The notes below the pieces were generated by a model. It made no database searches, had not been told where the DNA came from, and saw nothing but the letters and a program-made list of their open reading frames with translations. This document shows positions 10,846 to 58,047 of a stretch of 64,000 nucleotides of DNA, in pieces (position 1 is the stretch's first letter; each line of letters opens with the position of its first letter). The DNA is from a virus. A program made the translations under genes and the position numbers. The stretch is from UHGV virus genome UHGV-1455077; one strand, 5' to 3'.

Positions 10846-12111
10846 ATGAGAACTTATTTAGTTGGCGGAGCAGTAAGAGATATGCTACTTGGAAAAGAAC
10901 CACACGATAAAGATTATGTGGTTGTAGAATCATCAGTAGATGAAATGTTATCATTAGGTTATCAACAAGTAGGTAAAGATTTTCCTGTTTTTCTTCATCC
11001 AATAACAGGTGAAGAATATGCACTTGCAAGAACTGAAAGAAAAACTGGAAATAAACATACTGATTTTGAATTTTTTGCTGATTATGCTGTTACCTTATTT
11101 GAAGATTTAGGTCGCCGTGATTTTACTATGAATGCTATTGCTTTTAATATTGAAAATGAAAGTTGTTGGAGTTGTTGCTTAAATGACCCTTTTAAAGGCG
11201 TAAATGATATTAGAAATAAAATTATTCGTCATATTAGTGATTCATTTAAAGAAGACCCACTTCGTGTTTTACGAGCTTGTAGATTTTCAGCACAACTTGG
11301 ATTTGAAATTGCTTCTGAAACTATGGAATTAATGTCAAATATGGTAAATGATGGAATGTTAAATCATTTAACTGTTGAAAGAGTTTGGAAAGAAACTGAA
11401 AAAGCATTATCTTCTGGCTATGATTCTGAAAAATATTTTGAAACTCTTAATCAATGTGGTGCATTGAAAGTATTGTTTCCAGAAATATATAGACTTGTTA
11501 ATACACCTGAACAAGTAAAATATCATCCTTCTGGAAATACTTTTAAACATACAATGATTGCTTTATCAAGAGTTAAAAATGAAAATTCTTTAACAAAATT
11601 TGCCGTTGTTTGCCACGATTTAGGAAAAGGTACAACTCCTGTTGATATTTTACCTAAGCATAGCGGACACGATGAAAGAGGATTAACAGAAATTGATTCT
11701 TTGTGTGATAGACTAAAAGTTCCAAATAATTATAGAAATTGTGCAAAAACATTTTGTAAAAATCATATGCGTATGGCTCGTTTTAATGAAATGAATGTTA
11801 AAAAACAATATGATATGATTAAAGAATTATCAAATAATTTTAAAGAACAAATGCTTTTGGAATTATATATTGATTGTTTTTATGCTGATTGGACAGGTGA
11901 AAATGAACAAACAGCTTGGAATAATTTAGATGAAGCAGATGCAATTACGACAAAAATGAGAAAAATATTTTCTTTAATGGAAAGAATTACTTTAAAAGAT
12001 TTACCAGAAAAAACACAAGAAGATTTAAGTAAACAAAAAGGTGAAAAATTTGGTAAACTTTATCGTGATGCAATGATAAGTTATTTAAAATATAAATTGA
12101 AAAATTCTTAA
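10846..12111 (+). CDS. cca: tRNA nucleotidyltransferase (CCA-adding enzyme) with an HD domain
   Basis: MRTYLVGGAVRDMLLG...DKDYVV is the canonical class II Pol-beta head motif. RRDFTMNA and a later HD region (CHDLGKG) are also present. Confidence 0.85.
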   Translation: MRTYLVGGAVRDMLLGKEPHDKDYVVVESSVDEMLSLGYQQVGKDFPVFLHPITGEEYALARTERKTGNKHTDFEFFADYAVTLFEDLGRRDFTMNAIAFNIENESCWSCCLNDPFKGVNDIRNKIIRHISDSFKEDPLRVLRACRFSAQLGFEIASETMELMSNMVNDGMLNHLTVERVWKETEKALSSGYDSEKYFETLNQCGALKVLFPEIYRLVNTPEQVKYHPSGNTFKHTMIALSRVKNENSLTKFAVVCHDLGKGTTPVDILPKHSGHDERGLTEIDSLCDRLKVPNNYRNCAKTFCKNHMRMARFNEMNVKKQYDMIKELSNNFKEQMLLELYIDCFYADWTGENEQTAWNNLDEADAITTKMRKIFSLMERITLKDLPEKTQEDLSKQKGEKFGKLYRDAMISYLKYKLKNS

Positions 12112-12684: not shown

Positions 12685-12711
12685 AAAAGAGGAGCATTTG
12701 CTCCTCTTTCT
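12685..12711. terminator. bidirectional rho-independent terminator
   Basis: AGAGGAGCA tt TGCTCCTCT lies between convergent genes. Confidence 0.7.
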
Positions 12712-15700
12712 AATCATTCGCACCCCATTTAATTGTATCAATATTTCCATAAATTTCTTTTAAAAACCAACCAAATTTTTCTTTTGTAATTTCTATTGCA
12801 TCATCAATATCGTCATCTTCTGAAATATAGGGCCAAACTAAAACTTCATTGTTATCTCCTAATGTACCAACAATATCACCATCAACATCAGCATATTCCA
12901 TAACTGCACCGTGCATAGCAACGCCAGCATCCCATACATATAATGTTTTTGATTGAGAATTATATACAAATCTAAAAGCTCCATATTCTGTTTTACTAAA
13001 AGTATTTCTTATCCATTCTGCCGAAGGATTTTTCCAAACTTTTAATTGAATATAATTTTCACTATATTCATCATAAACTTCTTCATTAAAATATAATGAT
13101 TCATTTAAATTAAATCTTTTAACATCCAGAACTTGAACATCTTTAGGATTAAATATAACAAAACATCTTCCATCTTGTTCACCAACATAAGTAATACCTT
13201 TAATACCATATTTTAGTAATACCATAGATGCTTTTTTAGAAGTTTCAAAAGCGTAAACCATTTTAGAATAAATTTCTTGACCTGTATCTGTATCTTCAAA
13301 TTCTAAATTAAATATGTTATTAATTTTATACAATTTATCTTTGATAGATGGAAATTGTTGATTTAAAGTTCTGTCTTCATATAAGTACCCATTTTCAGGT
13401 ATATCGCAAGTATAAACATAAGAAGGTTCTTGTTTAATATAATCTAATAATTTTAATTGAATTTTCTTTTGTTTAATTCTTTTTTTGATATTCTCAAGCA
13501 TTTGTGAGTTATTGTTACCCATAGAATTCCAATGTTTTAAACTTAATTCGTAATCTTTTATTAAATAATTCAATTCTTCTCTATAATCTGGAATAGTATA
13601 AGATGTAACATTAGCAAAAAAATTATATAATGTTTCATTATCTTTTTGATTTATTTTTTTATTTCCAAGATAAACACCAGTATCATTCCATTTTATTAAT
13701 TGACCTTTAAAATATGTTTTTTTGTTTACAGAAAATGTTTTAGCATATTTTTCGCCAATTTTTCTATCTAATGCATAATATAATCCCCAACCGTGTGCTT
13801 GATTTCCTTCGCCTGAACCAATAGCAATCAAAGAAGGTTTTTCATACTGTGTTGGAGAACCAGCATAAACTCTCATTTCATTAATTTGATGTTTGCCATT
13901 ATATTTTTCAATAAGAAGTTTATATAATTTTGTATCTAAAAAGTCATCAGTTCTATAATAAACAACAAAATTTTTACAAATAATCATATCATCAAAATAA
14001 TCATTTTTTCTATCAAAAGAAAAATAATCATTTTCATCAATTAAAATAGCAGGAAGATTTTCCCAATATTCATCTTTTTCACGTTGATTTTTAAAATTAT
14101 AATAACCTGCTTGAATAGCATAATCAAATAATTGATTATGTATATTAAATAAAGAATTGCCAATAATATATAAATTTTTATTTGTATCAATTAAAACTCT
14201 CATAGAAGGAATTTTATTAGTTAATTTAATAACATCGTAAACATTATTTGTAATATAAATTGGTGTATGAATAGTTTCAATTGTTTGTAATGATTCTTTT
14301 ATAGTATTATTTGAATCCCACATTTTATGCAATGTATCGTAAATAACTTGTATTTGATGCTCATCAAATTTCCATAATTTACCAATGTTTTCATCAGCCC
14401 ATTCAAAAGGTGTATTTCCGTAATATTCTGACATAGCACACCAATCTGCACACATTTCATATAATGCTTCATCGGGCATTTTACCTCTTACATCTGGTGC
14501 TTTAAAATAACTATTTTTATCCCAATGTTGAGAATGATGAGCATTATTACGATAATGTAATTCTTGAGCTACTTTAAATGATTTCCATTCCTCATCAGTA
14601 CAATTCATTTTACCCCAAATAAAACCTTTAATGTAAGGAATTAATAATTCTTTTGAAAATTTATCAGCATCGTGATTTGGATATTGTTTGTTTATTTTAG
14701 AAGCATATTTATTAACTAAATTTTTATGATTTTCATAATGTTGTTTAAATTCTTTTACATCTTCTTCAGATATTTTTTTATTTTCAACATTTTCATTTAA
14801 ACATTCATCAACATTTTCTGAATAAGGAGACCATAATCCTTTATTATAAACAGATTTAATTTGTGAAGGATTCCAAACAATATATTCATCTATAATATTA
14901 TTTGAACCACCCATTGGTGTACAATTATCAAGTACATTTTTAAAAATTACTCCATCAAATGATTCTTGCTGTATATATTCATCATTTTCTTCATCATAAG
15001 TTTCTAATTTATTAATAATATCATAATATAAATCTTCATCAAATAAATCATTGTTAAAATCAACATTACCTTGTAATGTTGCAATGATGGTATGACGAAC
15101 AGAATGGTTAAGCATACCCCCCTCAAAATCATAAATATAAGGATTTTCAATTTGAAGAAATGATGGGTTAATAGTTGGATTTTCTAATTTCTTTTCTCTA
15201 ATTTCTTCAGCATAAGCATACCAATCTTTTTCTTTGTCTATACCTTTATCATAAAATTCACTTTCTTTTGCTCTTACTTCAGCTTCACCTGAATAATCAA
15301 GAGCGGCATCTTTATCTGATGTGAAATAAAATGCACCTTCTTCATTATTACCTGTGTTTAAACTACAATAATTTTTATCAAATCTTTTAATATTAACATT
15401 GCTTCCGTGATAACAAATTAATGGATTACCATTCACATCAACAACTTTGGAATTACCAAACCATTTCCAGAAATTATCATTTAATAAATATTCTTGTTTT
15501 AATTCTTTTGAATTATTTGAATTAATCTTTTTATTTTCAAAATCAATGTCATCTCCAACATTTACTTTATTAAATGTTCCTTCTCCAAACCAGTTATCTA
15601 TAATTTTTTGATGATACCATTGTCCATCATCTAATTTGATTTGATTTTTATATTTGTCTTCAACAACTGATTCATCTAATAAACCTAAATCGTCATCGGC

Positions 15701-17233
15701 ATATAATTCTTCCCATTTTTCTTTTGGAATAGTATTTGTAGAATTATCTTTTGAATTATATCCTAATTTATTAAACCAATCACTAAATGTAAAACCCCAA
15801 ATATCATAATCATTTTTTCTAAACATTACATTAGCAAAACCATCTCTGAATTTTTTATCAACTGGATAAATGTATCTTCTAAAAATATCATCGTGAGTTC
15901 CGTAATATGCATCCCAAACATAAATATCATCATTAAAATGAGGACCAACAATTGCTCTTAATTGTTTATTCTTGGAATTTTTTAATAAATCATTAAATTC
16001 TTTTTTAGTAGGATTTTTTAAAATAGTGAAAAAAACGTCATCACCTTGTTCATCTTTCCATTGAGATGCGTGATGAATACTTTCTTCTAAGAAACCATTT
16101 TTTATTAAATATTGTGGAACTAATGCATTATAAAAATTAAATTTACTTGTAAAATCTTTTATTGCATCAAGTTTATTACATTCATATATTTTTGTATATT
16201 TTTTATCATTTGTATAGATAATAATTTCAGAATGTTCAGAAATATTATTAGCTTTTTTAATATCTTCCTGTTTAAAATATTTTTCATCAAATACTGGTTT
16301 TTTTGTATCTAAATCAAACATATCAATATTTAAAATTAACGCTGATATTCTATCATATCTTCCATCTTCACTTTCAACAATACATATTTGGTCGCCATCA
16401 GCATCAGTTTTAATATCAGTAATTGTCCATTTAATATTATTTTCATCAATGTAAGACATTCCAACTTCAAATTCAATATAATCATCATCAAACATAACAC
16501 CTGTATTTGCAAATTCAGATTTTCGTTGAACATATCCTTCATCTAAATTTCTTGGAGTCGCATTGCCTATTAATTTAATTTGTTTATTTTCAAATACAGC
16601 ATAATTCTTTGTTCCATTTTCAGTAACTTGCATAGAATTATAAGCTGTTTTAATAATATCTGTATAATCTTCAACAATTTCCCAGTTATTATCTTTTAAT
16701 GGTGATTTTATATATTCATTATAATTAGTAAAATATTGTTCATTACCATTTGCATCTTCATAAGAAAATTTACCAACTTTTTTTAGAAGCCAATTAAAAT
16801 GTGAACGTTCATTAAAAATAAAACATTTACCAATATCTAATTGTGCTTTATAAATGTATTTCCCCCAATTTTTAGCAAATTCAATTTCTGATGTCCAAAA
16901 AATAGATTTTGTATTGAATTCTTTAATGTTTTTTTTATCTGAACCGTGGTAATATATAGAAGCACCAAAACCTTCAAATATTGGACGAGCAATAATTTTA
17001 ACATAATCATTTTCATATACTAATGAAACATTAAGTTTTTCATTTAATAATTTAAATGATTCAGTTAAATTACTTGGTTTTTTAAAAGAAATTTTTTGAA
17101 GATTATTCTTTAATTCTTCTTTTGAAATGCAATTAACAATATTATTATTTTCAATTAAAATATCATCATTTTTAATTTTTAATACATTATAAATTTGATG
17201 TCCGAAACGTATTTTATTACCGATGTTCAACAT
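12710..17233 (-). CDS. Giant 1507-aa multidomain hypothetical protein
   Basis: One uninterrupted minus-strand ORF, rich in N/K/Y/D. It is the only long antisense gene in the region. No diagnostic catalytic motif is recognised. Confidence 0.6.
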   Translation of the reverse strand: MLNIGNKIRFGHQIYNVLKIKNDDILIENNNIVNCISKEELKNNLQKISFKKPSNLTESFKLLNEKLNVSLVYENDYVKIIARPIFEGFGASIYYHGSDKKNIKEFNTKSIFWTSEIEFAKNWGKYIYKAQLDIGKCFIFNERSHFNWLLKKVGKFSYEDANGNEQYFTNYNEYIKSPLKDNNWEIVEDYTDIIKTAYNSMQVTENGTKNYAVFENKQIKLIGNATPRNLDEGYVQRKSEFANTGVMFDDDYIEFEVGMSYIDENNIKWTITDIKTDADGDQICIVESEDGRYDRISALILNIDMFDLDTKKPVFDEKYFKQEDIKKANNISEHSEIIIYTNDKKYTKIYECNKLDAIKDFTSKFNFYNALVPQYLIKNGFLEESIHHASQWKDEQGDDVFFTILKNPTKKEFNDLLKNSKNKQLRAIVGPHFNDDIYVWDAYYGTHDDIFRRYIYPVDKKFRDGFANVMFRKNDYDIWGFTFSDWFNKLGYNSKDNSTNTIPKEKWEELYADDDLGLLDESVVEDKYKNQIKLDDGQWYHQKIIDNWFGEGTFNKVNVGDDIDFENKKINSNNSKELKQEYLLNDNFWKWFGNSKVVDVNGNPLICYHGSNVNIKRFDKNYCSLNTGNNEEGAFYFTSDKDAALDYSGEAEVRAKESEFYDKGIDKEKDWYAYAEEIREKKLENPTINPSFLQIENPYIYDFEGGMLNHSVRHTIIATLQGNVDFNNDLFDEDLYYDIINKLETYDEENDEYIQQESFDGVIFKNVLDNCTPMGGSNNIIDEYIVWNPSQIKSVYNKGLWSPYSENVDECLNENVENKKISEEDVKEFKQHYENHKNLVNKYASKINKQYPNHDADKFSKELLIPYIKGFIWGKMNCTDEEWKSFKVAQELHYRNNAHHSQHWDKNSYFKAPDVRGKMPDEALYEMCADWCAMSEYYGNTPFEWADENIGKLWKFDEHQIQVIYDTLHKMWDSNNTIKESLQTIETIHTPIYITNNVYDVIKLTNKIPSMRVLIDTNKNLYIIGNSLFNIHNQLFDYAIQAGYYNFKNQREKDEYWENLPAILIDENDYFSFDRKNDYFDDMIICKNFVVYYRTDDFLDTKLYKLLIEKYNGKHQINEMRVYAGSPTQYEKPSLIAIGSGEGNQAHGWGLYYALDRKIGEKYAKTFSVNKKTYFKGQLIKWNDTGVYLGNKKINQKDNETLYNFFANVTSYTIPDYREELNYLIKDYELSLKHWNSMGNNNSQMLENIKKRIKQKKIQLKLLDYIKQEPSYVYTCDIPENGYLYEDRTLNQQFPSIKDKLYKINNIFNLEFEDTDTGQEIYSKMVYAFETSKKASMVLLKYGIKGITYVGEQDGRCFVIFNPKDVQVLDVKRFNLNESLYFNEEVYDEYSENYIQLKVWKNPSAEWIRNTFSKTEYGAFRFVYNSQSKTLYVWDAGVAMHGAVMEYADVDGDIVGTLGDNNEVLVWPYISEDDDIDDAIEITKEKFGWFLKEIYGNIDTIKWGAND

Positions 17234-44438: not shown

Positions 44439-44524
44439 GCAGAGTTATACCGTAGGAGTAGCGGGACAGACTGTAAATCTGTTGCCTTTTGGCTCGGGTG
44501 GTGCGACTCCATCACTCTGCACCA
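44439..44524 (+). tRNA. tRNA-Tyr (anticodon GTA), class II, CCA encoded
   Basis: Acceptor GCAGAGT/ACTCTGC. Anticodon stem ACAGA/TCTGT with loop CTGTAAA. Long variable arm. ACCA at the 3' end. Confidence 0.75.
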
Positions 44525-45146: not shown

Positions 45147-45491
45147 ATGATAGAATTAAGAAATTGTAAAAAACACGGTTTAACAGAATTTTCATATCAT
45201 AAATCTGGTAATAGATGGAGATGTAAAAAATGTATGGTTGAAGCTGTTAAATTAAGAAGGAAAAAAATTAAAGAAAAAGCTGTCGAATATAAAGGTGGAA
45301 AATGCGAAATCTGTGGATATAATAAATGTATAGATGCATTAGAATTTCATCATTTAAATCCAAAAGAAAAAGATTTTGGAATTGGAGAAAAAGGTTATAC
45401 TCGCAGTTGGATAAAAATTCAAGAAGAACTTGATAAATGTATTATGGTGTGTGCAAATTGCCATAGAGAAATACATAATAAAGATACGTAA
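45147..45491 (+). CDS. HNH homing endonuclease
   Basis: CEICGYNKCIDALEFHHLNPKEK....CANCHREIH is the HNH/Zn motif. It lies inside the tRNA array and ends 2 nt into tRNA-Asn. Confidence 0.65.
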   Translation: MIELRNCKKHGLTEFSYHKSGNRWRCKKCMVEAVKLRRKKIKEKAVEYKGGKCEICGYNKCIDALEFHHLNPKEKDFGIGEKGYTRSWIKIQEELDKCIMVCANCHREIHNKDT

Positions 45492-45770: not shown

Positions 45771-45846
45771 GGTTCGGTGACAGAACGATTAATGTACCCG
45801 TCTGCAAAACGGTGTTTAGTGGGTTTGACTCCCACCCGAATCTCCA
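45771..45846 (+). tRNA. tRNA-Cys (GCA)
   Basis: Acceptor GGTTCGG/CCGAATC (one GU). Anticodon stem CCGT/ACGG with loop CTGCAAA. T arm GTGGGTTTGACTCCCAC. CCA encoded. Confidence 0.6.
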
Positions 45847-45875
45847 TTATTGTTTTTTCAAAATTTTTAAGAATG

Positions 45876-45942
45876 GTGAGAAATTGATTTACATAGACTG
45901 GAAATCCGTGTGTAGAAAGTTCGATTCTTTCCCCATCGACCA
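45876..45942 (+). ncRNA. tRNA-like 3'-half module (T arm, acceptor 3' strand and ACCA) preceded by the conserved GTGAG...TTTACATAG leader
   Basis: GTGAGAAATTGATTTACATAG...GAAAG TTCGATT CTTTC CCCATCG A CCA. No matching 5' acceptor lies upstream. The complementary strand CGGTGGG lies downstream at 45948. Confidence 0.4.
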
Positions 45943-45947
45943 TTTAA

Positions 45948-45975
45948 CGGTGGGTAGCTCATTGGTAGAGCAACG
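45948..45975 (+). ncRNA. tRNA 5'-half-like element (acceptor, D arm: CGGTGGG TA GCTCATTGGTAGAGCA ACG); duplicated at 55886
   Basis: It complements the upstream 3' half perfectly, with one GU. It is followed by A-rich sequence and TTATGTTCCTT, as in the second copy. Confidence 0.4.
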
Positions 45976-46652
45976 TAAAATGATAATCAATTGTTATGTT
46001 CCTTCTTAATTTTAAAAGTTTTGGTAGTTGGAAGTTAAGCTTTTGGGGCAGGAGCAACTTAACTTCCATCTATTGATGCGTGTCCTGATTTAATTAATTA
46101 CCTTCTCGTGGTTCAGGATGTAAGTAAGAATTGCAGTTTTTGACATAAGACAATTCTGAAACTAAAGATTAATATTAAAATGATTTAATTGAAGTATAGT
46201 AAATTAAATAAGTTGATTAAATAAGTGAGCAAGATAGAATCAACTAAAGGTAATAATATGCAGATTATATGCCGAACTACTAACGCTTAAGGTAGATGTA
46301 GGAAATAACCTCGGTAGGGCAATTTAATTGTTAATCTCTTAGAAGTCCTAAAAAAATAAACCGTTTTAAAAAACTGCGTTAAATTAAAATTTTGAAATTG
46401 TTGTTCTCCTTTCATTGTTTTTCATACAACAAGAGTAAAAATATTCTTAGTATCGGGAGAGGTAATATCTTATCTCTCTCTTTTTATAAAAATGCTGGCA
46501 ATATTGGTTCGAATCCAATATGTATATCTTATCCTAAAAATTACTATTATAGTATTAGATTTAAATAGTAATGATATGTCAAATTTAATAAGAACGTGTT
46601 ATTGAATTATATACATTAGTTTAATGGTAGAACCCCAGCATTTCTATAAGAA

Positions 46653-46738
46653 GATTTTTATGGGTGTATAAGTCAACGGTTAGACTAACAGCCTTTTAAG
46701 CTGTAGATTCGGGTTCGATTCCTTTATAATCAATAATG
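46653..46738 (+). pseudogene. degenerate tRNA-Lys(TTT)-like element
   Basis: The D arm AGTC AACGGTTA GACT and the anticodon arm ACAGC CTTTTAA GCTGT are perfect. The T stem and acceptor cannot be paired. Confidence 0.3.
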
Positions 46739-51319: not shown

Positions 51320-51392
51320 TGCGGAATAGAGCAGAGGTAGCTTAACTGGCTCATAACCAGGAGGTCGGGCGGTTCGAATCCCCCTTCCGCAA
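51320..51392 (+). tRNA. tRNA-Met/Ile2 type (CAT), no encoded CCA
   Basis: Acceptor TGCGGAA/TTCCGCA is perfect. Anticodon stem CTGG/CCAG with loop CTCATAA. T arm GGCGG TTCGAAT CCCCC with one C-C mismatch. It ends ...A ACA. Confidence 0.55.
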
Positions 51393-51497
51393 CATCTAAC
51401 AAAAGCAAAACCTTTACGTGGTGTTAGATATAAGTAATTCGATTTGAATGAAACCAATTTGCTTAATTATTGAAAAATAGATATTTAAGGTTCAATA

Positions 51498-52163
51498 ATG
51501 TATTACCTAATTTATAAAATAACTAATAATGTAAATAATAAAATCTATATTGGAAAACATCAAACGGAAAATAAAGATGATGATTATATGGGTTCTGGAA
51601 AAATAATAAAAAGAGCTATTGAAAAATATGGTATAGATAAATTTACAAAAGAAATATTATATGAATGTAATTCATTAGAAGAAATGAATGAAAAAGAAGC
51701 AGAAATTGTTGATGAAGAATTTGTTGTTCGTTTAGATACATATAATATTAAATTAGGTGGTCAAGGTGGATGGGATTATGTCCATAAATATACTGATTGG
51801 AATGGATTTAAATATATAAATTCACAAAAGTTAAATAATAAATCGAATCAGTATAAAATATCTGCTGAAAAACTTAAAAATGATGAAAAATATGCAAAAG
51901 AATTTTCTTTAAAAATTTCTAATGGATTAAAATTATATTACCAATTACATAATAATCCATTTAAAGGGAAAAAACATACAATTGAATCAAAAATAAAAAT
52001 TGGTAAAGCAAATGCTATTAAACAAGCTGGTGAAGGAAATTCCAATTATGGAAAATGTTGGATTTATAATGAAGAATTAAAAGAAAATAAATCTATTAAA
52101 AAAGAAAATTTACAATCTTGGTTAGAGAAAGGTTGGAAAAAAGGGAGAAAAATGAAATTTTAA
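51498..52163 (+). CDS. GIY-YIG homing endonuclease (I-TevI/Seg-like)
   Basis: MYYLIYKITNNVNNKIYIGKH...YMGSGKIIKRAIEKYG is the canonical GIY-(10)-YIG module followed by R and E. A basic, DNA-binding-like C-terminus follows. It is embedded between tRNA genes. Confidence 0.7.
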   Translation: MYYLIYKITNNVNNKIYIGKHQTENKDDDYMGSGKIIKRAIEKYGIDKFTKEILYECNSLEEMNEKEAEIVDEEFVVRLDTYNIKLGGQGGWDYVHKYTDWNGFKYINSQKLNNKSNQYKISAEKLKNDEKYAKEFSLKISNGLKLYYQLHNNPFKGKKHTIESKIKIGKANAIKQAGEGNSNYGKCWIYNEELKENKSIKKENLQSWLEKGWKKGRKMKF

Positions 52164-52284: not shown

Positions 52285-52359
52285 TGTTTATAATGGCAAT
52301 GTAGTGAAAAGGTTATCACGACTGACTCATATTCAGTAATTTCAAGTTCGATTCTTGAC
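52285..52359 (+). tRNA. tRNA-Met (CAT), second copy, different sequence
   Basis: Acceptor GGCAATG/CATTGCT. D arm GTGA AAAGGTTA TCAC. Anticodon stem ACTGA/TCAGT with loop CTCATAT. T arm TCAAGTTCGATTCTTGA. ACCA at the 3' end. Confidence 0.7.
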
Positions 52360-52399
52360 ATTGCTACCATTCATTATTAACTTGTGGGATATTAATTTA

Positions 52400-53563
52400 A
52401 TGACAAATTACATTATAAATAATAATATCGTCAGAATTTTTGGCGAAGATGAAATCAATATTAAACCAGAAATTCCATTAGGAACATATTTGGTTAAAGA
52501 AAATGAATTAACAGGTGAATTGTTTTTAGAAAGAACAGCAGATTTTGTAAAGCCTGAAAAAATATATGGAGAATGTGAATTCCAATCTGAACGAATTATT
52601 AAAACATTTAAAGACAGACCTAATAATACTGGAGTTCTTTTAAATGGTGCAAAAGGTTCAGGAAAAACATTTTTAACTAAGTATATTTCCTATAAGCTTT
52701 TAAAAGATAATTATCCAACAATAATTATTAATGATATATTTAGTCCAACAAAGTTATCTTTATTAATTCAAACAATTAGTGAACCTTGTGTCATTATTTT
52801 TGATGAATTTGAAAAAATTTATCAATCAAATAAAAAAGATGATTTGCAAAACCCACAGAATGGTTTACTTTCATTGCTTGATGGTTTATTTCAAACTAAA
52901 AAGCTATTCATCTTTACTTGTAATGATGATAGTAATATTTCAGATTTGATGAAGAATAGACCTGGTAGAATTTTTTATAAATTGGAATTTAAAGGAATTA
53001 CTGAAAAAACAATTGAAGAATATTGTGAAGAAAAATTAAATAATAAATCATATATTTCTCAAATTTTTAGTATTCGTAAAATGATTAAAGATTTTACCTT
53101 TGATATTTTACAAGCAATTGTTGAAGAAGTTAATCGTTATAATGAAACTCCTTTAGATGTTGTTAAAATGCTTAATGTAACTCCAGAATCTTTATATGCA
53201 AAATATACTGTATCAATTAAGCCATTAAAGAATCAACAAATTGTAAAATTTGAAAAATCTTTATGGGTAAATCCATTATCTTCAGAAGAAGAATCAGTAT
53301 GGATTTATAGAACTAAAACATCAAATGCAGATGATAATAAATATGTTGTTGAAGACGAGGATATTAAAATTTGTGAGCTTAGTTGTGAAACTGATGATGA
53401 TGAAGATAATAATGTTAAAACAGTTACTGATTATTTTCCAGTATCATTGCTTACAATGGTATCATCTAACAAAAATACTTATGTGTATCAGAATGAAGAA
53501 TATCAGGTTACTTTAACTAAAAAGATTATTGATACTGATGATATGTGGAAGTATGCATTTTAA
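52400..53563 (+). CDS. AAA+ family ATPase
   Basis: Walker A LLNGAKGSGKTFLT and Walker B IIFDEFEKI are present. The start is set to the ATG at 52400, because the 52355 start of the ORF track lies inside tRNA-Met. Confidence 0.5.
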   Translation: MTNYIINNNIVRIFGEDEINIKPEIPLGTYLVKENELTGELFLERTADFVKPEKIYGECEFQSERIIKTFKDRPNNTGVLLNGAKGSGKTFLTKYISYKLLKDNYPTIIINDIFSPTKLSLLIQTISEPCVIIFDEFEKIYQSNKKDDLQNPQNGLLSLLDGLFQTKKLFIFTCNDDSNISDLMKNRPGRIFYKLEFKGITEKTIEEYCEEKLNNKSYISQIFSIRKMIKDFTFDILQAIVEEVNRYNETPLDVVKMLNVTPESLYAKYTVSIKPLKNQQIVKFEKSLWVNPLSSEEESVWIYRTKTSNADDNKYVVEDEDIKICELSCETDDDEDNNVKTVTDYFPVSLLTMVSSNKNTYVYQNEEYQVTLTKKIIDTDDMWKYAF

Positions 53564-54347: not shown

Positions 54348-54380
54348 CAAACAGATAGTGATTATTAGATTTACATAGTT
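54348..54380 (+). ncRNA. minimal member of the ATAGTGA...TTTACATAG element family (leader plus T-hairpin only)
   Basis: AGATAGTGATTATTAGATTTACATAG TTCGATTC TAT. Confidence 0.3.
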
Positions 54381-54475
54381 CGATTCTATATTTTTTCATA
54401 TAAAAAGGAAAAATGCCAAAAGGGTGGCGTTTACAATCTAATGAATTTTCTTCTGTTTATTTAAAAATTTTCGAT

Positions 54476-54540
54476 AGTGAGTATAAGATTTACATAGACC
54501 AGACTTTTAATCTGACATTTACAAAATCTTATAGATTGTT
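54476..54540 (+). ncRNA. family member with a Lys-like anticodon hairpin (CAGA CTTTTAA TCTG) but no T arm
   Basis: CGATAGTGAGTATAAGATTTACATAGACCAGACTTTTAATCTGACATTTACAAAATCTTATAG. Confidence 0.3.
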
Positions 54541-54560
54541 CTTCGAATTAATACTTTTTT

Positions 54561-54678
54561 GTGAATAGTGAGATATTAGGTTTACATAGCTAAAGTGGTT
54601 AAAGCATTTGACTTGAAATCAAAGTATTGTAGGTTCGATTCCTACTGTAATTTTAACTTAATAAAATGTTCTTTCACA
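54561..54678 (+). ncRNA. Y-RNA-like candidate: leader GTGAATAGTGAG, an embedded cloverleaf tRNA mimic (54580-54653, anticodon-loop TGA, acceptor GTTTACA/TGTAATT, no CCA) and a 3' strand TTCTTTCAC that can pair with the leader
   Basis: D arm GCT AAAGTGGTTAA AGC. Anticodon stem TTTGA/TCAAA with loop CTTGAAA. T arm GTAGG TTCGATT CCTAC. A canonical tRNA-Ser(TGA) is present separately at 54728. Confidence 0.4.
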
Positions 54679-54727
54679 AATTTAATTATTTGACACTTTA
54701 TTATAAATGTTATATAAATAATAATAT

Positions 54728-54813
54728 GGAAGGTAACTGGCTGGATGAAGACACCGACTTGAAATCGGCTGGGCGTAACTGCTTTGGGGGTTCGAGTCCC
54801 TCACCTTCCGCCA
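54728..54813 (+). tRNA. tRNA-Ser (TGA), class II
   Basis: Acceptor GGAAGGT/ACCTTCC. Anticodon stem CCGA/TCGG with loop CTTGAAA. Long variable arm. T arm GGGGGTTCGAGTCCCTC. GCCA at the 3' end. Confidence 0.8.
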
Positions 54814-55580: not shown

Positions 55581-55711
55581 GATTTTAATAAGCTCCCCCG
55601 CTAAAGATACTTTGTGTATACAGCGAATATGGGTCAAAGTTTAAACTTTGCATTAAATTATAATAATTGTACAATAAAAAATTATGTGAGCATTTTTTAA
55701 TTTTGTATGGT

Positions 55712-55745
55712 AATAGTGACTTAAAGAATTACATAGATAACTGAT
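55712..55745 (+). ncRNA. leader-motif copy (AATAGTGACTTAAAGAATTACATAG) with no recognisable tRNA body
   Basis: It matches the family consensus ATAGTGA-N(9-12)-TTACATAG. Confidence 0.25.
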
Positions 55746-55805
55746 TATTGTCTGCCAAAACAAGAAATTCTTTAAAATTATTCTTTACCATTTAAACTAT
55801 TTTAG

Positions 55806-55877
55806 CAATAGTGAGAAAAGGATTTACATAGGTTTGTAACCCGTTGGTAATTGGTTCGAATCCAATCAAGTAATTGA
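55806..55877 (+). ncRNA. tRNA-like 3'-half module with leader (GCAATAGTGAGAAAAGGATTTACATAG ... ATTGG TTCGAAT CCAAT CAAGTAA)
   Basis: It parallels the 45876 module: leader, mini-hairpin GGTT tgt AACC, T arm and acceptor 3' strand. The complementary TTATTTG strand follows at 55886. Confidence 0.35.
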
Positions 55878-55885
55878 AATATATT

Positions 55886-55910
55886 ATTTGTAGCTCATTG
55901 GTAGAGCAAC
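55886..55910 (+). ncRNA. second copy of the tRNA 5'-half-like element (TTATTTG TA GCTCATTGGTAGAGCA ACG)
   Basis: 21 nt are identical to 45955-45975. The downstream sequence is A-rich and contains TTATGTTCTTT, as in copy 1. Confidence 0.35.
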
Positions 55911-55954
55911 GATAAAAAATAATCCTTTATTATGTTCTTTGCTAACAAATATTT

Positions 55955-56070
55955 GGTGATAGTGATTAATTAGGTTTACATAGCTTAATGGTTAGAGCAT
56001 TGATTTAACACATCAAACGTTACAGGTTCAACTCCTGTTGTAATTAATACCTAATTTACTATTCTTCACC
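55955..56070 (+). ncRNA. Y-RNA-like candidate directly upstream of the Ro60/Rsr operon: a long terminal stem (5' GGTGA.TAGTGA.TTAATTAGG / 3' CCTAATT.ACTAT.TCACC with bulges) enclosing a cloverleaf tRNA mimic (55974-56046; acceptor GTTTACA/TGTAATT, anticodon-loop AAC, no CCA)
   Basis: D arm GCTT AATGGTTA GAGC. Anticodon stem TTGAT/ATCAA with loop TTAACAC. T arm ACAGG TTCAACT CCTGT. It is followed by the strong terminator at 56089. Confidence 0.45.
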
Positions 56071-56088
56071 AGTTCAATTTTGCACCCA

Positions 56089-56121
56089 AGAACATATGTT
56101 CTTGGGTATTTTTTTATATAA
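56089..56121 (+). terminator. rho-independent terminator
   Basis: ACCCAAGAACAT ATGTTCTTGGGT followed by ATTTTTTT. Confidence 0.7.
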
Positions 56122-56760: not shown

Positions 56761-58047
56761 ATGAAAACAAATAAAGCTGAAAAGAAACCAGCAATTTACA
56801 CTAATGAAGGTGGTAAAGCATCTCATATTAGTGATTTAGAAGAATTGAAAAGAGCAACAATGTCTTGTTTGCTTTGGGAAGATAACTTCTATGAAGATGG
56901 TGTATCAATTGCTGACAGAATTACCTCTTTAGTTAAAAATTGTATTGATAAAGGTCATTATGATGATGTAATTGATATTTTGAAAACTGTAAAATTTGAT
57001 ATGAGATTACGTCATTGTCCATTGTGGATGATTGTTGCAATTTATAAAGCAGGTAAAACTATTGATAAGAATGTTATTGCATCTATTCTTACAAGACCAG
57101 ATGATATGGGAGAATTACTTTCTCTTTATCGTAAAGACCAAGCAAATGCACCTATTCCAAATGCTATGAAAAAAGCTATGGCTATTGCCATTACTAAATT
57201 TGATGAATATCAATTGGCTAAATGGAATCGTGATGCTAATTACAAATTGGTTGATATTGTAAACATTTGTCATCCACAAGTAACTGAAGCTATTGATAAG
57301 TTGGTTAAAGGAACTTTAGAAACTCCAAAAACTTGGGAAGTTCTTCTTTCTGCCGCTGGTTCTGATAAAGAAAAGAAAAAAGAAGCTTGGTTGGATTTGA
57401 TTGAAACTAATAAATTACCTGATATGGCTCTTTTGAAGAATATTCGTGGTATGTTGGATGTAGGTGTTTCTAAAAACACATTGGTTGACCGTATTAATAA
57501 TATTAAAAATGGTAGATTATTGCCAATTGATTATATTAGAGCGGCAAATACAAATCCATCATTGGAAAATGAAATTGAAAAGAAATTCTTAAATTGCTTT
57601 GAAAAACCTTCTTTGAATGGTAAGACTGCAATTTTAGTAGATGTGTCAGGTTCTATGGATGGAGAAAGATTAAATTATGCAAATGCATTAGCGATGATTG
57701 GTCGTGAAATGTGTGAAAATGTTGATATTTACTCATTCTCTAATGAAGTCAAATTCATTCCAAATCGTAGAGGATTTGCTTTAGCAGAAGCTATTGATAA
57801 ATCACAATACCATAATGGAACTTATATGTGGGATGCTATTAGTACAGTTGAAAAAGCTCATTACGATAGATTAATTGTTATTACTGATGAGCAAACAATG
57901 GGTATGCCACACAACGCAGTTATTAAAAATGCATACATTATTAATGTTGCACCATATAATAAAGGTGTTGGTTACAATAATGGTTACAAACATATTAATG
58001 GTTTTTCAGATAAAGTATTTAATTATATTACTGAAATTGAAAAATAA
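56761..58047 (+). CDS. rsr: Ro60/Rsr-like protein (TROVE-like N-terminal region plus C-terminal von Willebrand A domain)
   Basis: The vWA MIDAS motif is AILVDVSGSMDG, with downstream ...VITDEQT. The N-terminal segments LLWEDNFYEDG and DDVIDILKT...RLRHCPLWMIVAI resemble the Ro60 family (L.FGSEGGTYY ... EVI.EI ... P.LFALAIA). Confidence 0.55.
   Translation: MKTNKAEKKPAIYTNEGGKASHISDLEELKRATMSCLLWEDNFYEDGVSIADRITSLVKNCIDKGHYDDVIDILKTVKFDMRLRHCPLWMIVAIYKAGKTIDKNVIASILTRPDDMGELLSLYRKDQANAPIPNAMKKAMAIAITKFDEYQLAKWNRDANYKLVDIVNICHPQVTEAIDKLVKGTLETPKTWEVLLSAAGSDKEKKKEAWLDLIETNKLPDMALLKNIRGMLDVGVSKNTLVDRINNIKNGRLLPIDYIRAANTNPSLENEIEKKFLNCFEKPSLNGKTAILVDVSGSMDGERLNYANALAMIGREMCENVDIYSFSNEVKFIPNRRGFALAEAIDKSQYHNGTYMWDAISTVEKAHYDRLIVITDEQTMGMPHNAVIKNAYIINVAPYNKGVGYNNGYKHINGFSDKVFNYITEIEK

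What the first reader, a model, noticed from the sequence alone, without database searches (positions are those of the whole stretch)
45876..45975. Permuted arrangement: tRNA 3' half precedes a complementary tRNA 5' half (two loci)
At 45915-45942 a T arm plus acceptor 3' strand CCCATCG-A-CCA has no upstream partner. Six nt downstream, CGGTGGG-TA-GCTCATTGGTAGAGCA pairs perfectly with it. The same pattern recurs at 55839-55910 (CAAGTAA upstream, TTATTTG-TA-GCTCATTGGTAGAGCAACG downstream), with 21 identical nt in the 5'-half element. This is the layout of circularly permuted tRNA genes. It could also be a split tRNA, or paired ends of a Y-RNA-like stem.
Basis: seen in the sequence. Interest (0 to 1): 0.6.

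Follow-up and report, generated by a model that had tools for sequence, protein, structure and literature searches.

The report
Phage Y RNAs that mimic tRNA
The two "back-to-front tRNA" stretches are the tRNA-like cores of Y RNAs, small non-coding RNAs that dock onto a Ro60 (Rsr) protein this phage encodes; such RNA-protein pairs are already known from bacteria and other phages, so this is a new example, not a new kind of gene.

Summary
At 45915-45975 and 55850-55911 (+ strand), a T arm and a 3' acceptor strand come first. A short loop follows, then the matching 5' acceptor strand and a D arm. Both cores sit inside longer units, Y1 (45867-46009) and Y6 (55802-55945). In each unit the two ends pair into a two-part stem with a bulged U and a conserved RGUGAG motif.

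Both units match Rfam YrlA (Y RNA-like) over the full model but below its threshold (42.5 and 35.4 bits; threshold 69). A TROVE+vWA Ro60/Rsr gene lies at 56761-58047, 816 nt downstream of Y6 on the same strand. A model built from these units found full-length relatives next to the Rsr gene in dozens of viral contigs, always on the Rsr strand. It also hit Caulobacter phage CcrColossus, which the literature lists as carrying Y RNA-like RNAs. Compensatory changes support every helix, and the tRNA tertiary Levitt pair (15:48) also covaries.

The window holds seven such units. Two of them enclose normal-order tRNA-like bodies that ARAGORN calls tRNA-Ser(tga) and tRNA-Val(aac).

Its Y-RNA alternative is right. 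Verdict: new member of a known kind, modest interest.

The parts
45867..46009 (+). Y1: a complete YrlA-type Y RNA unit (finding locus 1). Layout: outer stem 45867-45873/46003-46009; bulged T 45874; GG 45875-76 paired with CC 46001-02; TGAGA 45877-81 opposite GTTATGTT 45993-46000; stem 2 45882-89/45985-92; TAC; anticodon-like strand, loop and strand 45893-97/45898-904/45905-09; variable region 45910-14; T arm 45915-31; acceptor hairpin 45932-38/45948-54 with loop ACCATTTAA; TA; D arm 45957-71; AACG 45972-75.
   Evidence: Sequence. Rfam YrlA 42.5 bits, model positions 1-114 of 114. R1 170 bits. Covariation. Architecture scan.
55802..55945 (+). Y6: a complete YrlA-type Y RNA unit (finding locus 2). 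Layout: outer stem 55802-08/55939-45; bulged T 55809; AG 55810-11 paired with CT 55937-38; stem 2 55817-24/55921-28; anticodon-like hairpin 55828-32/55833-39/55840-44; variable region 55845-49; T arm 55850-66; acceptor hairpin 55867-73/55884-90; TA; D arm 55893-907; AACG 55908-11.
   Evidence: Sequence. Rfam YrlA 35.4 bits, full length. The minimum-free-energy fold reproduces the outer stem, stem 2, T arm, acceptor hairpin and D arm. R1 168 bits.
54349..54458 (+). Y2: a Y RNA-like unit with the same Ro-type stem. The inner part carries a T-arm-like hairpin (ATAG-TTCGATT-CTAT) and other hairpins, but no D arm or acceptor.
   Evidence: Sequence. Architecture scan score 16. Exact TTTACATAG.
54470..54547 (+). 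Y3: a short Y RNA-like unit. The inner part is an anticodon-arm-like hairpin (CAGA-CTTTTAA-TCTG).
54558..54680 (+). Y4: the same Ro-type stem enclosing a normal-order tRNA-like body (54579-54654). ARAGORN calls it tRNA-Ser(tga), but it has a short variable loop and no encoded CCA.
   Evidence: R1 34 bits.
55707..55791 (+). Y5: a minimal (YrlB-like) Y RNA unit. It has the stem and a 35-nt loop, with no tRNA-like arms.
   Evidence: R1 20 bits.
55953..56072 (+). Y7: the Ro-type stem enclosing a normal-order tRNA-like body (55974-56046). ARAGORN calls it tRNA-Val(aac). It has no CCA and a U.U mismatch in the acceptor stem.
   Evidence: R1 27.8 bits.
56084..56117 (+). Intrinsic terminator-like hairpin plus T tract, closing the Y5-Y6-Y7 stretch.
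   Evidence: 10-bp stem, 5 G-C pairs, T run.
56761..58047 (+). Ro60/Rsr ortholog (428 aa, TROVE plus vWA), the presumed protein partner of the Y RNA units.
   Evidence: Pfam TROVE E 2.5e-17 plus weak vWA. The family profile hits Thermus phage phiLo phiRo60 (PDB 9KOP/9L5Y) at E 1.5e-44, X. laevis Ro60 at 1.5e-7 and D. radiodurans Rsr at 3.8e-7. It is 31-41% identical to TROVE proteins of CcrColossus, crAss001 and others.
10846..12111 (+). CCA-adding tRNA nucleotidyltransferase. This is context only. It could service tRNAs and any Y RNA nicked by RNase P.
   Evidence: Pfam PolyA_pol head E 7e-20. NCBIfam multifunctional CCA addition/repair protein E 1e-124.

Best explanation
Both loci are genes for YrlA-class Y RNAs, non-coding RNAs built in two parts.

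Part 1 is a stem formed by the RNA's own 5' and 3' ends. It consists of a 7-bp outer helix, a bulged U, an RG:CY pair step, a conserved internal loop (YGAG opposite WUDUU) and an 8-bp second helix. By analogy with the GNCGAA/GGUCCGA site of other Y RNAs, this stem is where the phage's Ro60/Rsr ring protein (56761-58047) docks.

Part 2 is a tRNA-shaped head in which the acceptor stem is closed by a loop and the chain enters and leaves between the D arm and the anticodon side. That is why it reads as a circularly permuted tRNA.

What is shown here:
- the sequence and structure family
- covariation of all helices and of the 15:48 tertiary pair
- constant linkage to the Rsr gene, on the same strand

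What is inferred from characterised relatives (D. radiodurans and S. Typhimurium RYPER; Thermus phage phiLo phiRo60-Yrl-PNPase):
- The RNA tethers Rsr to a tRNA-elbow-binding effector. Host PNPase is the likeliest candidate.
- The RNA gates the Rsr cavity. During infection this redirects or damps host RNA decay and quality control, plausibly to the benefit of the phage's own large tRNA set.

Y1 has a 7-bp acceptor stem followed by ACCA in a 9-nt loop. It may additionally be nicked by RNase P, as M. smegmatis YrlA is. That step is inferred.

Confidence is about 0.87 for the identity and about 0.4 for the PNPase-tether mechanism.
For: - Rfam YrlA matches over the full model at both loci: 42.5 and 35.4 bits, E 1.8e-6 and 2e-4.
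- A TROVE+vWA protein lies 816 nt downstream of Y6 on the same strand. The closest solved relative is phage phiLo phiRo60, at E 1.5e-44.
- Model R1 was built from the window units with no pairs imposed on the anticodon side. It finds 63 hits with E<=1e-4 in 83 sources. All are on the Rsr strand, and most lie 100-900 nt upstream of Rsr.
- R1 also finds three hits upstream of the TROVE gene of CcrColossus (46-61 bits). One of them has the same sub-threshold Rfam YrlA score, 42.3 bits. Hu et al. 2025 cite Chen et al. 2014 for Y RNA-like RNAs in that phage.
- On 11 distinct sequences, 94-97% of cells pair, against 40-48% when partners are slid. Pairs with changes on both sides: acceptor hairpin 7/7, T arm 4/5, outer stem 8/9, stem 2 8/8.
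- RNAalifold recovers the same helices on its own, with 28 of 32 pairs compensatory.
- tRNA tertiary signature in 54 distinct sequences: 15:48 is G:C 32, A:U 12, U:A 6, other 4. The UA linker is present in 52/54, A14 and A21 in 54/54, and GG in the D loop in 50/54.
- The shared stem architecture occurs 179 times on the Rsr strand against 28 on the opposite strand. The exact motif TTTACATAG occurs 6 times in the window against 1.2 expected, every time inside a unit.
- Literature: YrlA RNAs lie within 4 kb of Ro60 on the same strand in 254 bacteria and 22 phages, and show Levitt-pair compensation (PMC4201824). [quoted passage not shown]
- phiRo60 binds two upstream Yrl RNAs and host PNPase (PMC12135203).
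Against: - Both loci score below Rfam's gathering threshold (69 bits), and so did every relative in the 20 loci searched at that threshold.
- The 5' motif here is GGUGAGA or AGUGAGA, not the published GNCGAAN0-1G.
- The middle helix of the Rfam model is absent.
- Y1 lies 10.75 kb from Rsr, outside the 4-kb criterion of Chen et al.
- No expression, binding or processing data exist for this phage.
- The effector is unknown, and no PNPase was noticed among the window proteins I scanned.
- The anticodon side is unresolved. The same 3' strand can form either a 5-bp hairpin with a 7-nt loop or a 3-bp stem with the strand after the D arm.
Confidence: 0.87

Rival explanations
1. These are true circularly permuted tRNA genes of the Cyanidioschyzon type. 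The transcript would be circularised at its ends and reopened in the acceptor loop to give a working tRNA.
For: - The order of arms is a clean permutation, and the arm lengths match tRNA exactly: 7-bp acceptor, UA linker, 4-bp D stem, 5-bp T stem, 5-nt variable region and a possible 5-bp/7-nt anticodon arm.
- Y1 encodes A-CCA directly after the acceptor 3' strand.
Against: - Most relatives close the acceptor stem with UUCG or GNRA tetraloops, which leaves nothing to open.
- The flanks form a conserved bulged stem of about 17 bp shared with units that have no tRNA-like part at all (Y2, Y3, Y5). By reading the sequence, this is not a bulge-helix-bulge motif.
- The anticodon-like triplets are scattered: GUU 8, UGU 7 and about 25 others. 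GGA in Y1 would mean Ser, but there is no long variable arm.
- The Rfam tRNA model and ARAGORN give no call.
- The elements are tightly linked to Rsr.
- From established knowledge, the splicing endonuclease pathway these genes need is archaeal and eukaryotic.
Confidence: 0.02
2. Y1, but not Y6, is a two-piece Y RNA. RNase P cuts 5' of C45948, the upstream piece is trimmed back to ...CCCAUCG-ACCA, and the nicked RNA exposes a free tRNA-like CCA end. That end could be repaired by the phage CCA-adding enzyme or even charged.
For: - Y1 has a 7-bp acceptor stem, a discriminator A plus CCA, and a 5-nt spacer before the 5' strand.
- N-CCA at this exact position occurs in 8 of 55 distinct relatives, about 1 being expected by chance. 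Those relatives have long loops rather than tetraloops.
- M. smegmatis YrlA, which has a 7-bp acceptor stem, is cut by RNase P and receives CCA in vivo (PMC4201824).
- The phage encodes a CCA-adding enzyme.
Against: - There are no transcript data.
- The loop is short, so only 5 nt would serve as a leader.
- S. Typhimurium YrlA and D. radiodurans Yrn1 are not cleaved.
- The CCA may simply be a relic of a dimeric-tRNA origin (model cited).
- This is an extension of the best explanation, not a replacement for it.
Confidence: 0.25
3. They are decaying leftovers of tandem tRNA genes, namely the 3' part of one gene and the 5' part of the next. Recombination or homing-endonuclease activity in the tRNA cluster would have produced them, and they have no function.
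For: - They sit in a cluster of more than 20 tRNA genes interspersed with HNH and GIY-YIG endonuclease-like ORFs.
- A dimeric-tRNA origin has been proposed for YrlA.
Against: - The structure is conserved with compensatory changes across Rsr proteins down to 34-45% identity, at GC contents from 29 to 61%.
- The tertiary pair covaries.
- Strand and position relative to Rsr are constant.
Confidence: 0.03
4. The long flanking stems are processing stalks for the polycistronic tRNA transcript (RNase III or RNase E type). The enclosed tRNA-like bodies would then be unusual tRNAs or processing by-products unrelated to Rsr.
For: - Y4 and Y7 enclose bodies that score as good tRNAs, at 61 and 59 bits.
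- The units lie between real tRNAs and ahead of a terminator.
Against: - The stem carries a conserved bulge and motif resembling the Ro60 site.
- The same stem encloses non-tRNA loops (Y3, Y5).
- In distant phages the units track the Rsr gene even where ARAGORN found no tRNA genes in the locus (L007 and L011).
- Y4 and Y7 lack the CCA that 18 of about 20 real tRNAs here encode.
Confidence: 0.05

Closest known systems
YrlA (Y RNA-like A; Rfam RF02553; Chen et al. 2014, RNA 20:1715; crystal structure of the S. Typhimurium tRNA-like domain, PDB 6CU1)
   Same: - Encoded beside a Ro60/Rsr gene on the same strand.
- The 5' and 3' ends pair into a protein-binding stem with a purine-rich 5' motif.
- The head has a T arm, then a loop-closed acceptor stem, then a UA linker, then a D arm.
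- T-loop and D-loop nucleotides are conserved, and the 15:48 pair covaries.
- Several Y RNAs can occur per locus, some without the full tRNA-like head (YrlB).
   Different: - Scores fall below the Rfam threshold.
- The motif is RGUGAG, with a bulged U and a GG:CC step, instead of GNCGAAN0-1G.
- The middle helix of the Rfam model is missing.
- The strand that forms the anticodon-stem mimic can instead fold back into a 5-bp hairpin with a tRNA-like 7-nt loop. Published YrlA 'lacks the anticodon loop'.
- One copy (Y1) lies 10.75 kb from Rsr.
Phage Ro60-Y RNA systems: Thermus phage phiLo phiRo60 with Yrl1 and Yrl2 (Hu et al. [quoted passage not shown]
   Same: - The Rsr here belongs to the same short TROVE+vWA family (profile E 1.5e-44 to phiRo60; 37% identity to the CcrColossus protein).
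- The Y RNA genes lie in tandem upstream of the gene.
- The CcrColossus units match my model at 46-61 bits.
   Different: - Seven units here, against the two described for phiLo.
- As described, Yrl1 and Yrl2 are stem-bulge-stem RNAs with a CGAA motif, and no tRNA-like head is mentioned.
- Binding to Rsr and to PNPase is shown for phiLo and only inferred here.
D. radiodurans Yrn1
   Same: It is a Y RNA whose tRNA-like part runs in the normal order (D-like arm, anticodon-like arm, T arm), with the Ro-binding stem in place of the acceptor end. Units Y4 and Y7 of this window are built the same way.
   Different: - Yrn1 has only partial D-loop features and a 6-nt 'anticodon loop'.
- Y4 and Y7 are near-perfect cloverleaves that tRNA finders call as tRNAs.
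- There is no sequence relationship between Yrn1 and these units.
Circularly permuted tRNA genes of Cyanidioschyzon merolae, and split tRNAs of Nanoarchaeum
   Same: The 3' portion of the cloverleaf is encoded upstream of the 5' portion.
   Different: - Those genes yield working tRNAs through bulge-helix-bulge cleavage and ligation.
- Here the acceptor end is closed by a loop or tetraloop, the flanks are a Ro60-type stem, the context is a bacteriophage, and the anticodon-like loops are not conserved.

Membership tests
YrlA-class Y RNA (Chen et al. 2014; Rfam RF02553) | Reaches the Rfam gathering score (69 bits) | tested here: not met
   Scores are 42.5 and 35.4 bits with full-length alignments. 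Relatives are also below threshold. One of the three CcrColossus units scores the same, 42.3 bits. The shortfall is therefore a property of this phage clade.
YrlA-class Y RNA (Chen et al. 2014; Rfam RF02553) | Encoded within about 4 kb of a Ro60/Rsr (TROVE) gene, on the same strand | tested here: met
   Y6 ends 816 nt upstream of Rsr (56761) on the same strand. All 63 hits in relatives are on the Rsr strand. Y1 is on the same strand but 10.75 kb away, so it does not meet the criterion itself. Its position is conserved in L002-L004.
YrlA-class Y RNA (Chen et al. 2014; Rfam RF02553) | T arm, then loop-closed acceptor-like stem, then UA linker, then D arm, supported by covariation | tested here: met
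   Pairs with changes on both sides: acceptor 7/7, T arm 4/5, D arm 2/4. The UA linker is present in 52/54 sequences.
YrlA-class Y RNA (Chen et al. 2014; Rfam RF02553) | tRNA tertiary-interaction nucleotides, including a compensating 15:48 Levitt pair | tested here: met
   15:48 is G:C 32, A:U 12, U:A 6, other 4. A14 and A21 are present in 54/54. GG occurs in the D loop in 50/54. The T loop is mostly TTCRANT.
YrlA-class Y RNA (Chen et al. 2014; Rfam RF02553) | 5' motif GNCGAAN0-1G in a stem formed by the 5' and 3' ends (the putative Rsr site) | tested here: inconclusive
   The terminal stem is present and covaries (outer 8/9, stem 2 8/8). The motif here is GGUGAGA or AGUGAGA. Relatives show GGCGAAG, GGUGAAG and GGYGUAG. 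It is a close variant, not an exact match.
YrlA-class Y RNA (Chen et al. 2014; Rfam RF02553) | Anticodon-stem mimic made by pairing the 5' and 3' strands, with no anticodon loop | tested here: inconclusive
   A 3-bp version is possible (92% of cells paired). The same strand can also form a 5-bp hairpin with a 7-nt loop (78% paired). Of 54 relatives, 31 have at least 4 of 5 hairpin pairs, and 5 have a 4-5 bp junction stem instead.
YrlA-class Y RNA (Chen et al. 2014; Rfam RF02553) | Bound by Rsr in vivo; modified by TruB and DusA | not testable with these tools
   This needs RIP or CLIP, EMSA and modification mapping.
Circularly permuted tRNA gene (C. merolae type) | 3' half encoded upstream of the 5' half in one transcript | tested here: met
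   This concerns the layout only.
Circularly permuted tRNA gene (C. merolae type) | Termini form a bulge-helix-bulge motif for the splicing endonuclease, and the acceptor end is opened by processing | tested here: not met
   By reading the sequence, the flanks form 7+2+8 bp helices with a 1-nt bulge and an asymmetric 5/8-nt internal loop. Most relatives have tetraloop-closed acceptor stems.
Circularly permuted tRNA gene (C. merolae type) | Encodes a decodable, chargeable tRNA with a conserved anticodon and identity elements | tested here: not met
   Anticodon-like triplets are scattered across relatives. GGA in Y1 lacks the long variable arm of Ser tRNAs. No tRNA call was made.
Split tRNA (Nanoarchaeum type) | Halves at separate loci, joined in trans through complementary leader and trailer sequences | tested here: not met
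   The halves are contiguous and joined by a 9-10 nt loop.
Ro60/Rsr protein (TROVE + vWA ring) | TROVE HEAT-repeat domain followed by a vWA domain, with homology to solved Ro60 proteins | tested here: met
   Pfam TROVE E 2.5e-17 and a weak vWA match. PDB hits: phiRo60 1.5e-44, Ro60 1.5e-10 and 1.5e-7, Rsr 3.8e-7. The protein is short (428 aa) and has no NCBIfam hit.

The most novel reading that the evidence does not exclude
The phage carries a modular set of seven Ro60-docking RNAs. Each presents a different piece or permutation of a tRNA on the same Rsr-binding stem:
- a whole cloverleaf in normal order (Y4, Y7)
- a permuted cloverleaf with a closed acceptor (Y6)
- a permuted cloverleaf with an RNase P/CCA-ready acceptor (Y1)
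- an anticodon arm alone (Y3)
- a T arm alone (Y2)
- a bare loop (Y5)

The set would work as decoys or sensors for host tRNA-targeting defence nucleases, or as adaptors that bring damaged phage tRNAs to Rsr, rather than as one generic PNPase tether.

The fast turnover of the anticodon-like loops between phages with 86% identical Rsr (UGA, UUU, GUU at the same unit) would then reflect an arms race.
Probability: 0.12. Interest if true: 0.7.

Novelty: new member of a known kind. Interest (0 to 1): 0.3.

Why it matters
It removes a false lead. These are not permuted or split tRNA genes in a bacteriophage, which would have been remarkable.

It also has practical consequences for annotation:
- This large clade of phage Y RNAs scores below Rfam's YrlA threshold, so pipelines leave it blank. 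At least 535 IMG/VR stretches encode the partner Rsr.
- Pipelines can also mislabel parts of these units as tRNAs. Examples are tRNA-Ser(tga) and tRNA-Val(aac) here, and the annotated tRNA-Gln of CcrColossus. That inflates phage tRNA counts and produces odd anticodons.

Biologically, it adds a jumbo phage that has seven tandem Y RNA units beside its Ro60 gene and also encodes a CCA-adding enzyme (about 45 kb away in the window). This is a convenient system for asking what the tRNA-like head of bacterial and phage Y RNAs recruits, a question still open for YrlA.

Tried and rejected
1. Near-identity search of the tRNA region against 50,697 phage genomes. The only match was an 89-nt tRNA-Tyr-like stretch in Enterococcus and Klebsiella phages. 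It gave no help with the elements.

2. Pairing of the conserved ACATAG (5') with TTATGT (3'), as Rfam's alignment of locus 1 suggested. Rejected, because L005 and the wider family do not keep it, and it conflicts with the covarying stem 2.

3. MAFFT alone could not align the distant copies L005c and L007c. I replaced it with a covariance model.

4. Single-sequence minimum-free-energy folding of Y1 mispairs the T arm. The z-scores are only about -2, so they are weak evidence on their own.

5. Deciding between the anticodon-like hairpin and the 3-bp junction stem. Both have compensatory support, and relatives split into two subclasses. RNAalifold predicts neither. This is left open.

6. R1 found nothing in L009, L012 or Ralstonia phage RsoM2USA, and only weak partial hits downstream of the crAss001 TROVE gene. 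Their Y RNAs, if any, differ.

7. Searching for normal-order tRNA-in-Y-stem units outside the window's own clade gave only two likely chance cases, both with CCA.

8. The supplementary tables of Chen et al. 2014 and two Wolin-lab reviews are not held in the library. I therefore could not check which phage YrlAs were listed.

9. NCBIfam gave no name for the Rsr protein.
Full report
**1. The observation**

Locus 1 reads, in order:
- T arm GAAAG-TTCGATT-CTTTC (45915-45931)
- CCCATCG (45932-45938)
- A-CCA
- a 5-nt spacer, TTTAA
- CGGTGGG (45948-45954)
- TA
- D arm GCTCATTGGTAGAGC (45957-45971)

Locus 2 has the same order:
- T arm at 55850-55866
- CAAGTAA
- a 10-nt loop
- TTATTTG
- TA
- the identical D arm

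Each 7-bp acceptor pairing includes one G.U. The identical run is 22 nt long. The 19-mer GCTCATTGGTAGAGCAACG occurs exactly twice in the window and never in 100 shuffles. ARAGORN finds 21 ordinary tRNAs in the 44.5-60.3 kb cluster but none at these two places.

**2. What it is**

*Rfam match.* A scan of 40-64 kb against Rfam matched both loci to RF02553 YrlA ("Y RNA-like") over the whole model (positions 1-114 of 114). The scores were 42.5 and 35.4 bits, with E 1.8e-6 and 2e-4, below the curated threshold of 69. The alignments place the T arm, the loop-closed acceptor stem, the UA linker and the D arm exactly on the model. The model's middle helix is unmatched.

*Partner protein.* The ORF at 56761-58047, 816 nt downstream of locus 2 on the same strand, is a TROVE+vWA protein (Pfam TROVE E 2.5e-17). 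A profile of this protein family hits:
- the Ro60 homolog of Thermus phage phiLo (PDB 9KOP/9L5Y) at E 1.5e-44
- RO60 (9NEN) at E 1.5e-10
- X. laevis Ro60 at E 1.5e-7
- D. radiodurans Rsr at E 3.8e-7

*Full units.* The cores sit inside longer units, Y1 (45867-46009) and Y6 (55802-55945). From the outside in, each unit has:
- a 7-bp outer helix
- a bulged U
- a two-pair step (GG:CC in Y1, AG:CU in Y6, itself a compensatory change)
- a conserved internal loop (UGAGA opposite RUUAUGUU)
- an 8-bp second helix that differs between the two copies by two compensated positions (AATTGATT/AATCAATT versus AAAGGATT/AATCCTTT)
- the conserved UUACAUAG
- the tRNA-like head

**3. Relatives**

The window is nearly identical to IMG/VR contig 3300045988_152892 (216.8 kb). 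Its Rsr protein is 100% identical, with a few nucleotide differences elsewhere.

Using Rsr as bait, I fetched 12 viral loci and then 80 more. In all, 535 stretches in IMG/VR encode a relative.

I built covariance model R1 from four copies, with pairs only for the outer stem, the second helix, the T arm, the acceptor hairpin and the D arm. Its results:
- It found 63 matches with E<=1e-4 in 83 sources.
- Every match was on the Rsr strand.
- Most lay 100-900 nt upstream of Rsr, and a few just downstream.
- It also found three units upstream of the TROVE gene of Caulobacter phage CcrColossus, at 61, 46 and 60 bits.

Hu et al. 2025 cite Chen et al. 2014 for Y RNA-like RNAs in CcrColossus. One of the CcrColossus units has the same sub-threshold Rfam YrlA score, 42.3 bits. 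None of the 20 relatives searched at Rfam's own threshold was called YrlA.

**4. Structure support**

On 11 distinct sequences, 94-97% of cells form standard pairs, against 40-48% when the partners are slid by one to three columns. Changes on both sides occur at 7/7 acceptor pairs, 4/5 T-arm pairs, 8/9 outer-stem pairs, 8/8 second-helix pairs and 2/4 D-arm pairs. That alignment is fitted to the model, so it leans toward the model's structure. RNAalifold on the same alignment independently predicts the same helices, with 28 of 32 pairs compensatory and a covariation term of -11.8 kcal/mol.

The tertiary signature of a tRNA L-shape is present in 54 distinct sequences:
- UA linker in 52
- A14 and A21 in all 54
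- GG in the D loop in 50
- the 15:48 Levitt pair as G:C in 32, A:U in 12, U:A in 6 (the window copies are U:A), and other in only 4

Chen et al. reported this same compensation for YrlA.

**5. The anticodon side**

The strand at tRNA positions 39-43 (UCCGU in Y1, CCCGU in Y6) has two mutually exclusive partners.

- *Option (i).* It pairs with AUAGR upstream. This gives a 5-bp stem (with one A x C mismatch), a 7-nt loop (CUGGAAA, UUUGUAA) and a 5-nt variable region. That is exact tRNA geometry.
- *Option (ii).* It pairs with ACG just after the D arm. This gives the top 3 bp of an anticodon stem that continues toward the Rsr stem, as in published YrlA.

Both options show compensatory changes.

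A geometry test that does not depend on the alignment gave the following for 54 relatives:
- 31 have at least 4 of 5 hairpin pairs. The rate is 57%, against 23% in shifted controls. For 5 of 5 pairs the rates are 20% and 1%.
- The loops follow the pattern Y-U-N-N-N-A-A.
- 5 relatives have no hairpin but a 4-5 bp junction stem.

I leave this undecided for the window copies. Published YrlA "lacks the anticodon loop", so a hairpin form would be a variant feature.

**6. More units in the window**

The exact motif TTTACATAG occurs six times, against 1.2 expected, always on the + strand. A scan for the stem architecture finds seven units, scoring 15-17. The other hits in the window score 11-13.

| Unit | Coordinates | Inner part |
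|---|---|---|
| Y1 | 45867-46009 | permuted tRNA-like head |
| Y2 | 54349-54458 | T-arm-like hairpin only |
| Y3 | 54470-54547 | anticodon-arm-like hairpin |
| Y4 | 54558-54680 | normal-order tRNA-like body |
| Y5 | 55707-55791 | bare loop |
| Y6 | 55802-55945 | permuted tRNA-like head |
| Y7 | 55953-56072 | normal-order tRNA-like body |

A terminator-like hairpin follows at 56084-56117.

Across all loci, the architecture occurs 179 times on the Rsr strand and 28 times on the other strand.

ARAGORN calls Y4 and Y7 tRNA-Ser(tga) and tRNA-Val(aac). Three things argue against that:
- They lack the CCA that 18 of about 20 real tRNAs here encode.
- Y4 has no long variable arm.
- A better tRNA-Ser(UGA) candidate, with a long arm, lies at 54728-54812.

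This normal-order type was seen only in the window's own clade. It recalls D. radiodurans Yrn1.

**7. Mechanism**

*Shown here:*
- membership of the sequence and structure family
- selection for a tRNA-like fold
- fixed linkage to Rsr

*Inferred from characterised systems:*
- Y RNA stems bind Ro60 through a bulged helix.
- The second module tethers an effector.
- In D. radiodurans and S. Typhimurium, the Rsr-Y RNA-PNPase complex degrades structured RNA.
- In phage phiLo, phiRo60 and its two upstream Yrl RNAs bind host PNPase and attenuate it.

I therefore take the window units to be Rsr-docking RNAs whose tRNA-shaped heads recruit a tRNA-elbow-binding factor, most likely PNPase. Their role would be to reshape host RNA decay or quality control during infection.

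Y1's 7-bp acceptor stem followed by ACCA makes RNase P nicking plausible:
- There is a precedent in M. smegmatis YrlA.
- N-CCA occurs at that exact position in 8 of 55 relatives, about one being expected by chance.
- Most other relatives close the stem with UUCG or GNRA tetraloops.
- The phage encodes a CCA-adding enzyme.

**8. Comparison and verdict**

The permuted-tRNA-gene and split-tRNA readings fail their defining tests: there is no openable end in most relatives, no bulge-helix-bulge motif, no conserved anticodon, and the halves are contiguous.

The elements meet the structural, tertiary and genomic-context criteria of YrlA. They miss the Rfam score and carry a variant 5' motif (RGUGAG rather than GNCGAA).

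Three facts place this within a known kind:
- The same clade includes CcrColossus, a phage the literature already lists as carrying Y RNA-like RNAs.
- Phage Ro60-Y RNA complexes have been solved.
- The literature already describes YrlA as resembling a circularly permuted tRNA.

This is therefore a new member of a known kind.

The points of some interest are:
- the seven-unit array with different tRNA pieces on one docking stem
- the possible full anticodon arm
- the blind spot and mislabelling in annotation

Interest: 0.3.

Noticed in passing
window 54579-54654 and 55974-56046: ARAGORN's tRNA-Ser(tga) and tRNA-Val(aac) lie inside Y-RNA-type stems (units Y4 and Y7). They lack the encoded CCA that nearly all other tRNAs here have. 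The 'Ser' call has a short variable loop. They are probably Rsr-docked tRNA mimics, not decoders. At the equivalent units in L002-L004 the anticodon-like triplet changes to ttt or gtt.
   Followed up: partly
window 54728-54812: A likely genuine tRNA-Ser(UGA): long variable arm, acceptor GGAAGGT/ACCTTCC, G-CCA end. ARAGORN misses it, and in Rfam it appears only as a weak tRNA-Sec hit (30.7 bits).
   Followed up: no
window 45771-45843: A tRNA-Cys(GCA) with an encoded CCA, found by the Rfam tRNA model (46.8 bits) but not by ARAGORN. It ends 24 nt before unit Y1.
   Followed up: no
L093 (Caulobacter phage CcrColossus JX100810.1) 1951-2920: At least six tandem Y RNA-like units lie upstream of the TROVE gene. 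The GenBank-annotated tRNA-Gln (locus 2128-2195) lies inside one of them (2123-2289), so it is probably a mis-annotation.
   Followed up: partly
acceptor-loop position 73-76 in alignment A7 (e.g. window 45939-45942; L008, L019, L031, L052, L067): N-CCA directly after the 7-bp acceptor 3' strand occurs in 8 of 55 distinct Y RNA copies, about 1 being expected by chance, and always with long loops. The remaining copies mostly end in UUCG or GNRA tetraloops. This suggests either a relic of a dimeric-tRNA origin or a subclass processed by RNase P.
   Followed up: partly
window 10846-12111: The phage encodes a CCA-adding tRNA nucleotidyltransferase (NCBIfam E 1e-124, just under the equivalog cut-off).
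   Followed up: partly
window 45147-45491 and 51498-52163: HNH and GIY-YIG/NUMOD3 (SegE-like) homing-endonuclease-like ORFs are interspersed in the tRNA cluster. The Pfam matches are weak.
   Followed up: no
window 52355-53563: A 402-aa AAA/STAND-like ATPase ORF begins inside the 3' end of tRNA-Met (52295-52369). Its function is unknown.
   Followed up: no
window 12710-17233 (- strand): A 1507-aa polyvalent protein with an ADP-ribosyltransferase (ART-PolyVal) domain and DUF5662.
   Followed up: no
window 46661-46733 and 51320-51393: Two further tRNA calls, Lys(ttt) at 44.5 bits and Met(cat), lack an encoded CCA, unlike the rest of the cluster. They are not flanked by the Y-type stem. Their status is unclear.
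   Followed up: no
L020 2109-2181: A 73-nt element next to the Rsr/Y RNA locus of another phage scores as tmRNA (65 bits, above threshold). It consists only of a tRNA-like domain (GGGGACG...TCTCCACCA) with no mRNA-like part.
   Followed up: no
window versus L001 (IMGVR_UViG_3300045988_152892): The window is not base-identical to the IMG/VR contig that has the 100% identical Rsr. There are scattered substitutions and a 1-nt homopolymer difference in Y6, so it comes from a very close variant.
   Followed up: no
window 44441-44519: A weak tRNA hit (29.8 bits) overlaps the only stretch of the region with DNA similarity to known phages, 85-88% to tRNA-Tyr regions of Enterococcus and Klebsiella phages.
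   Followed up: no
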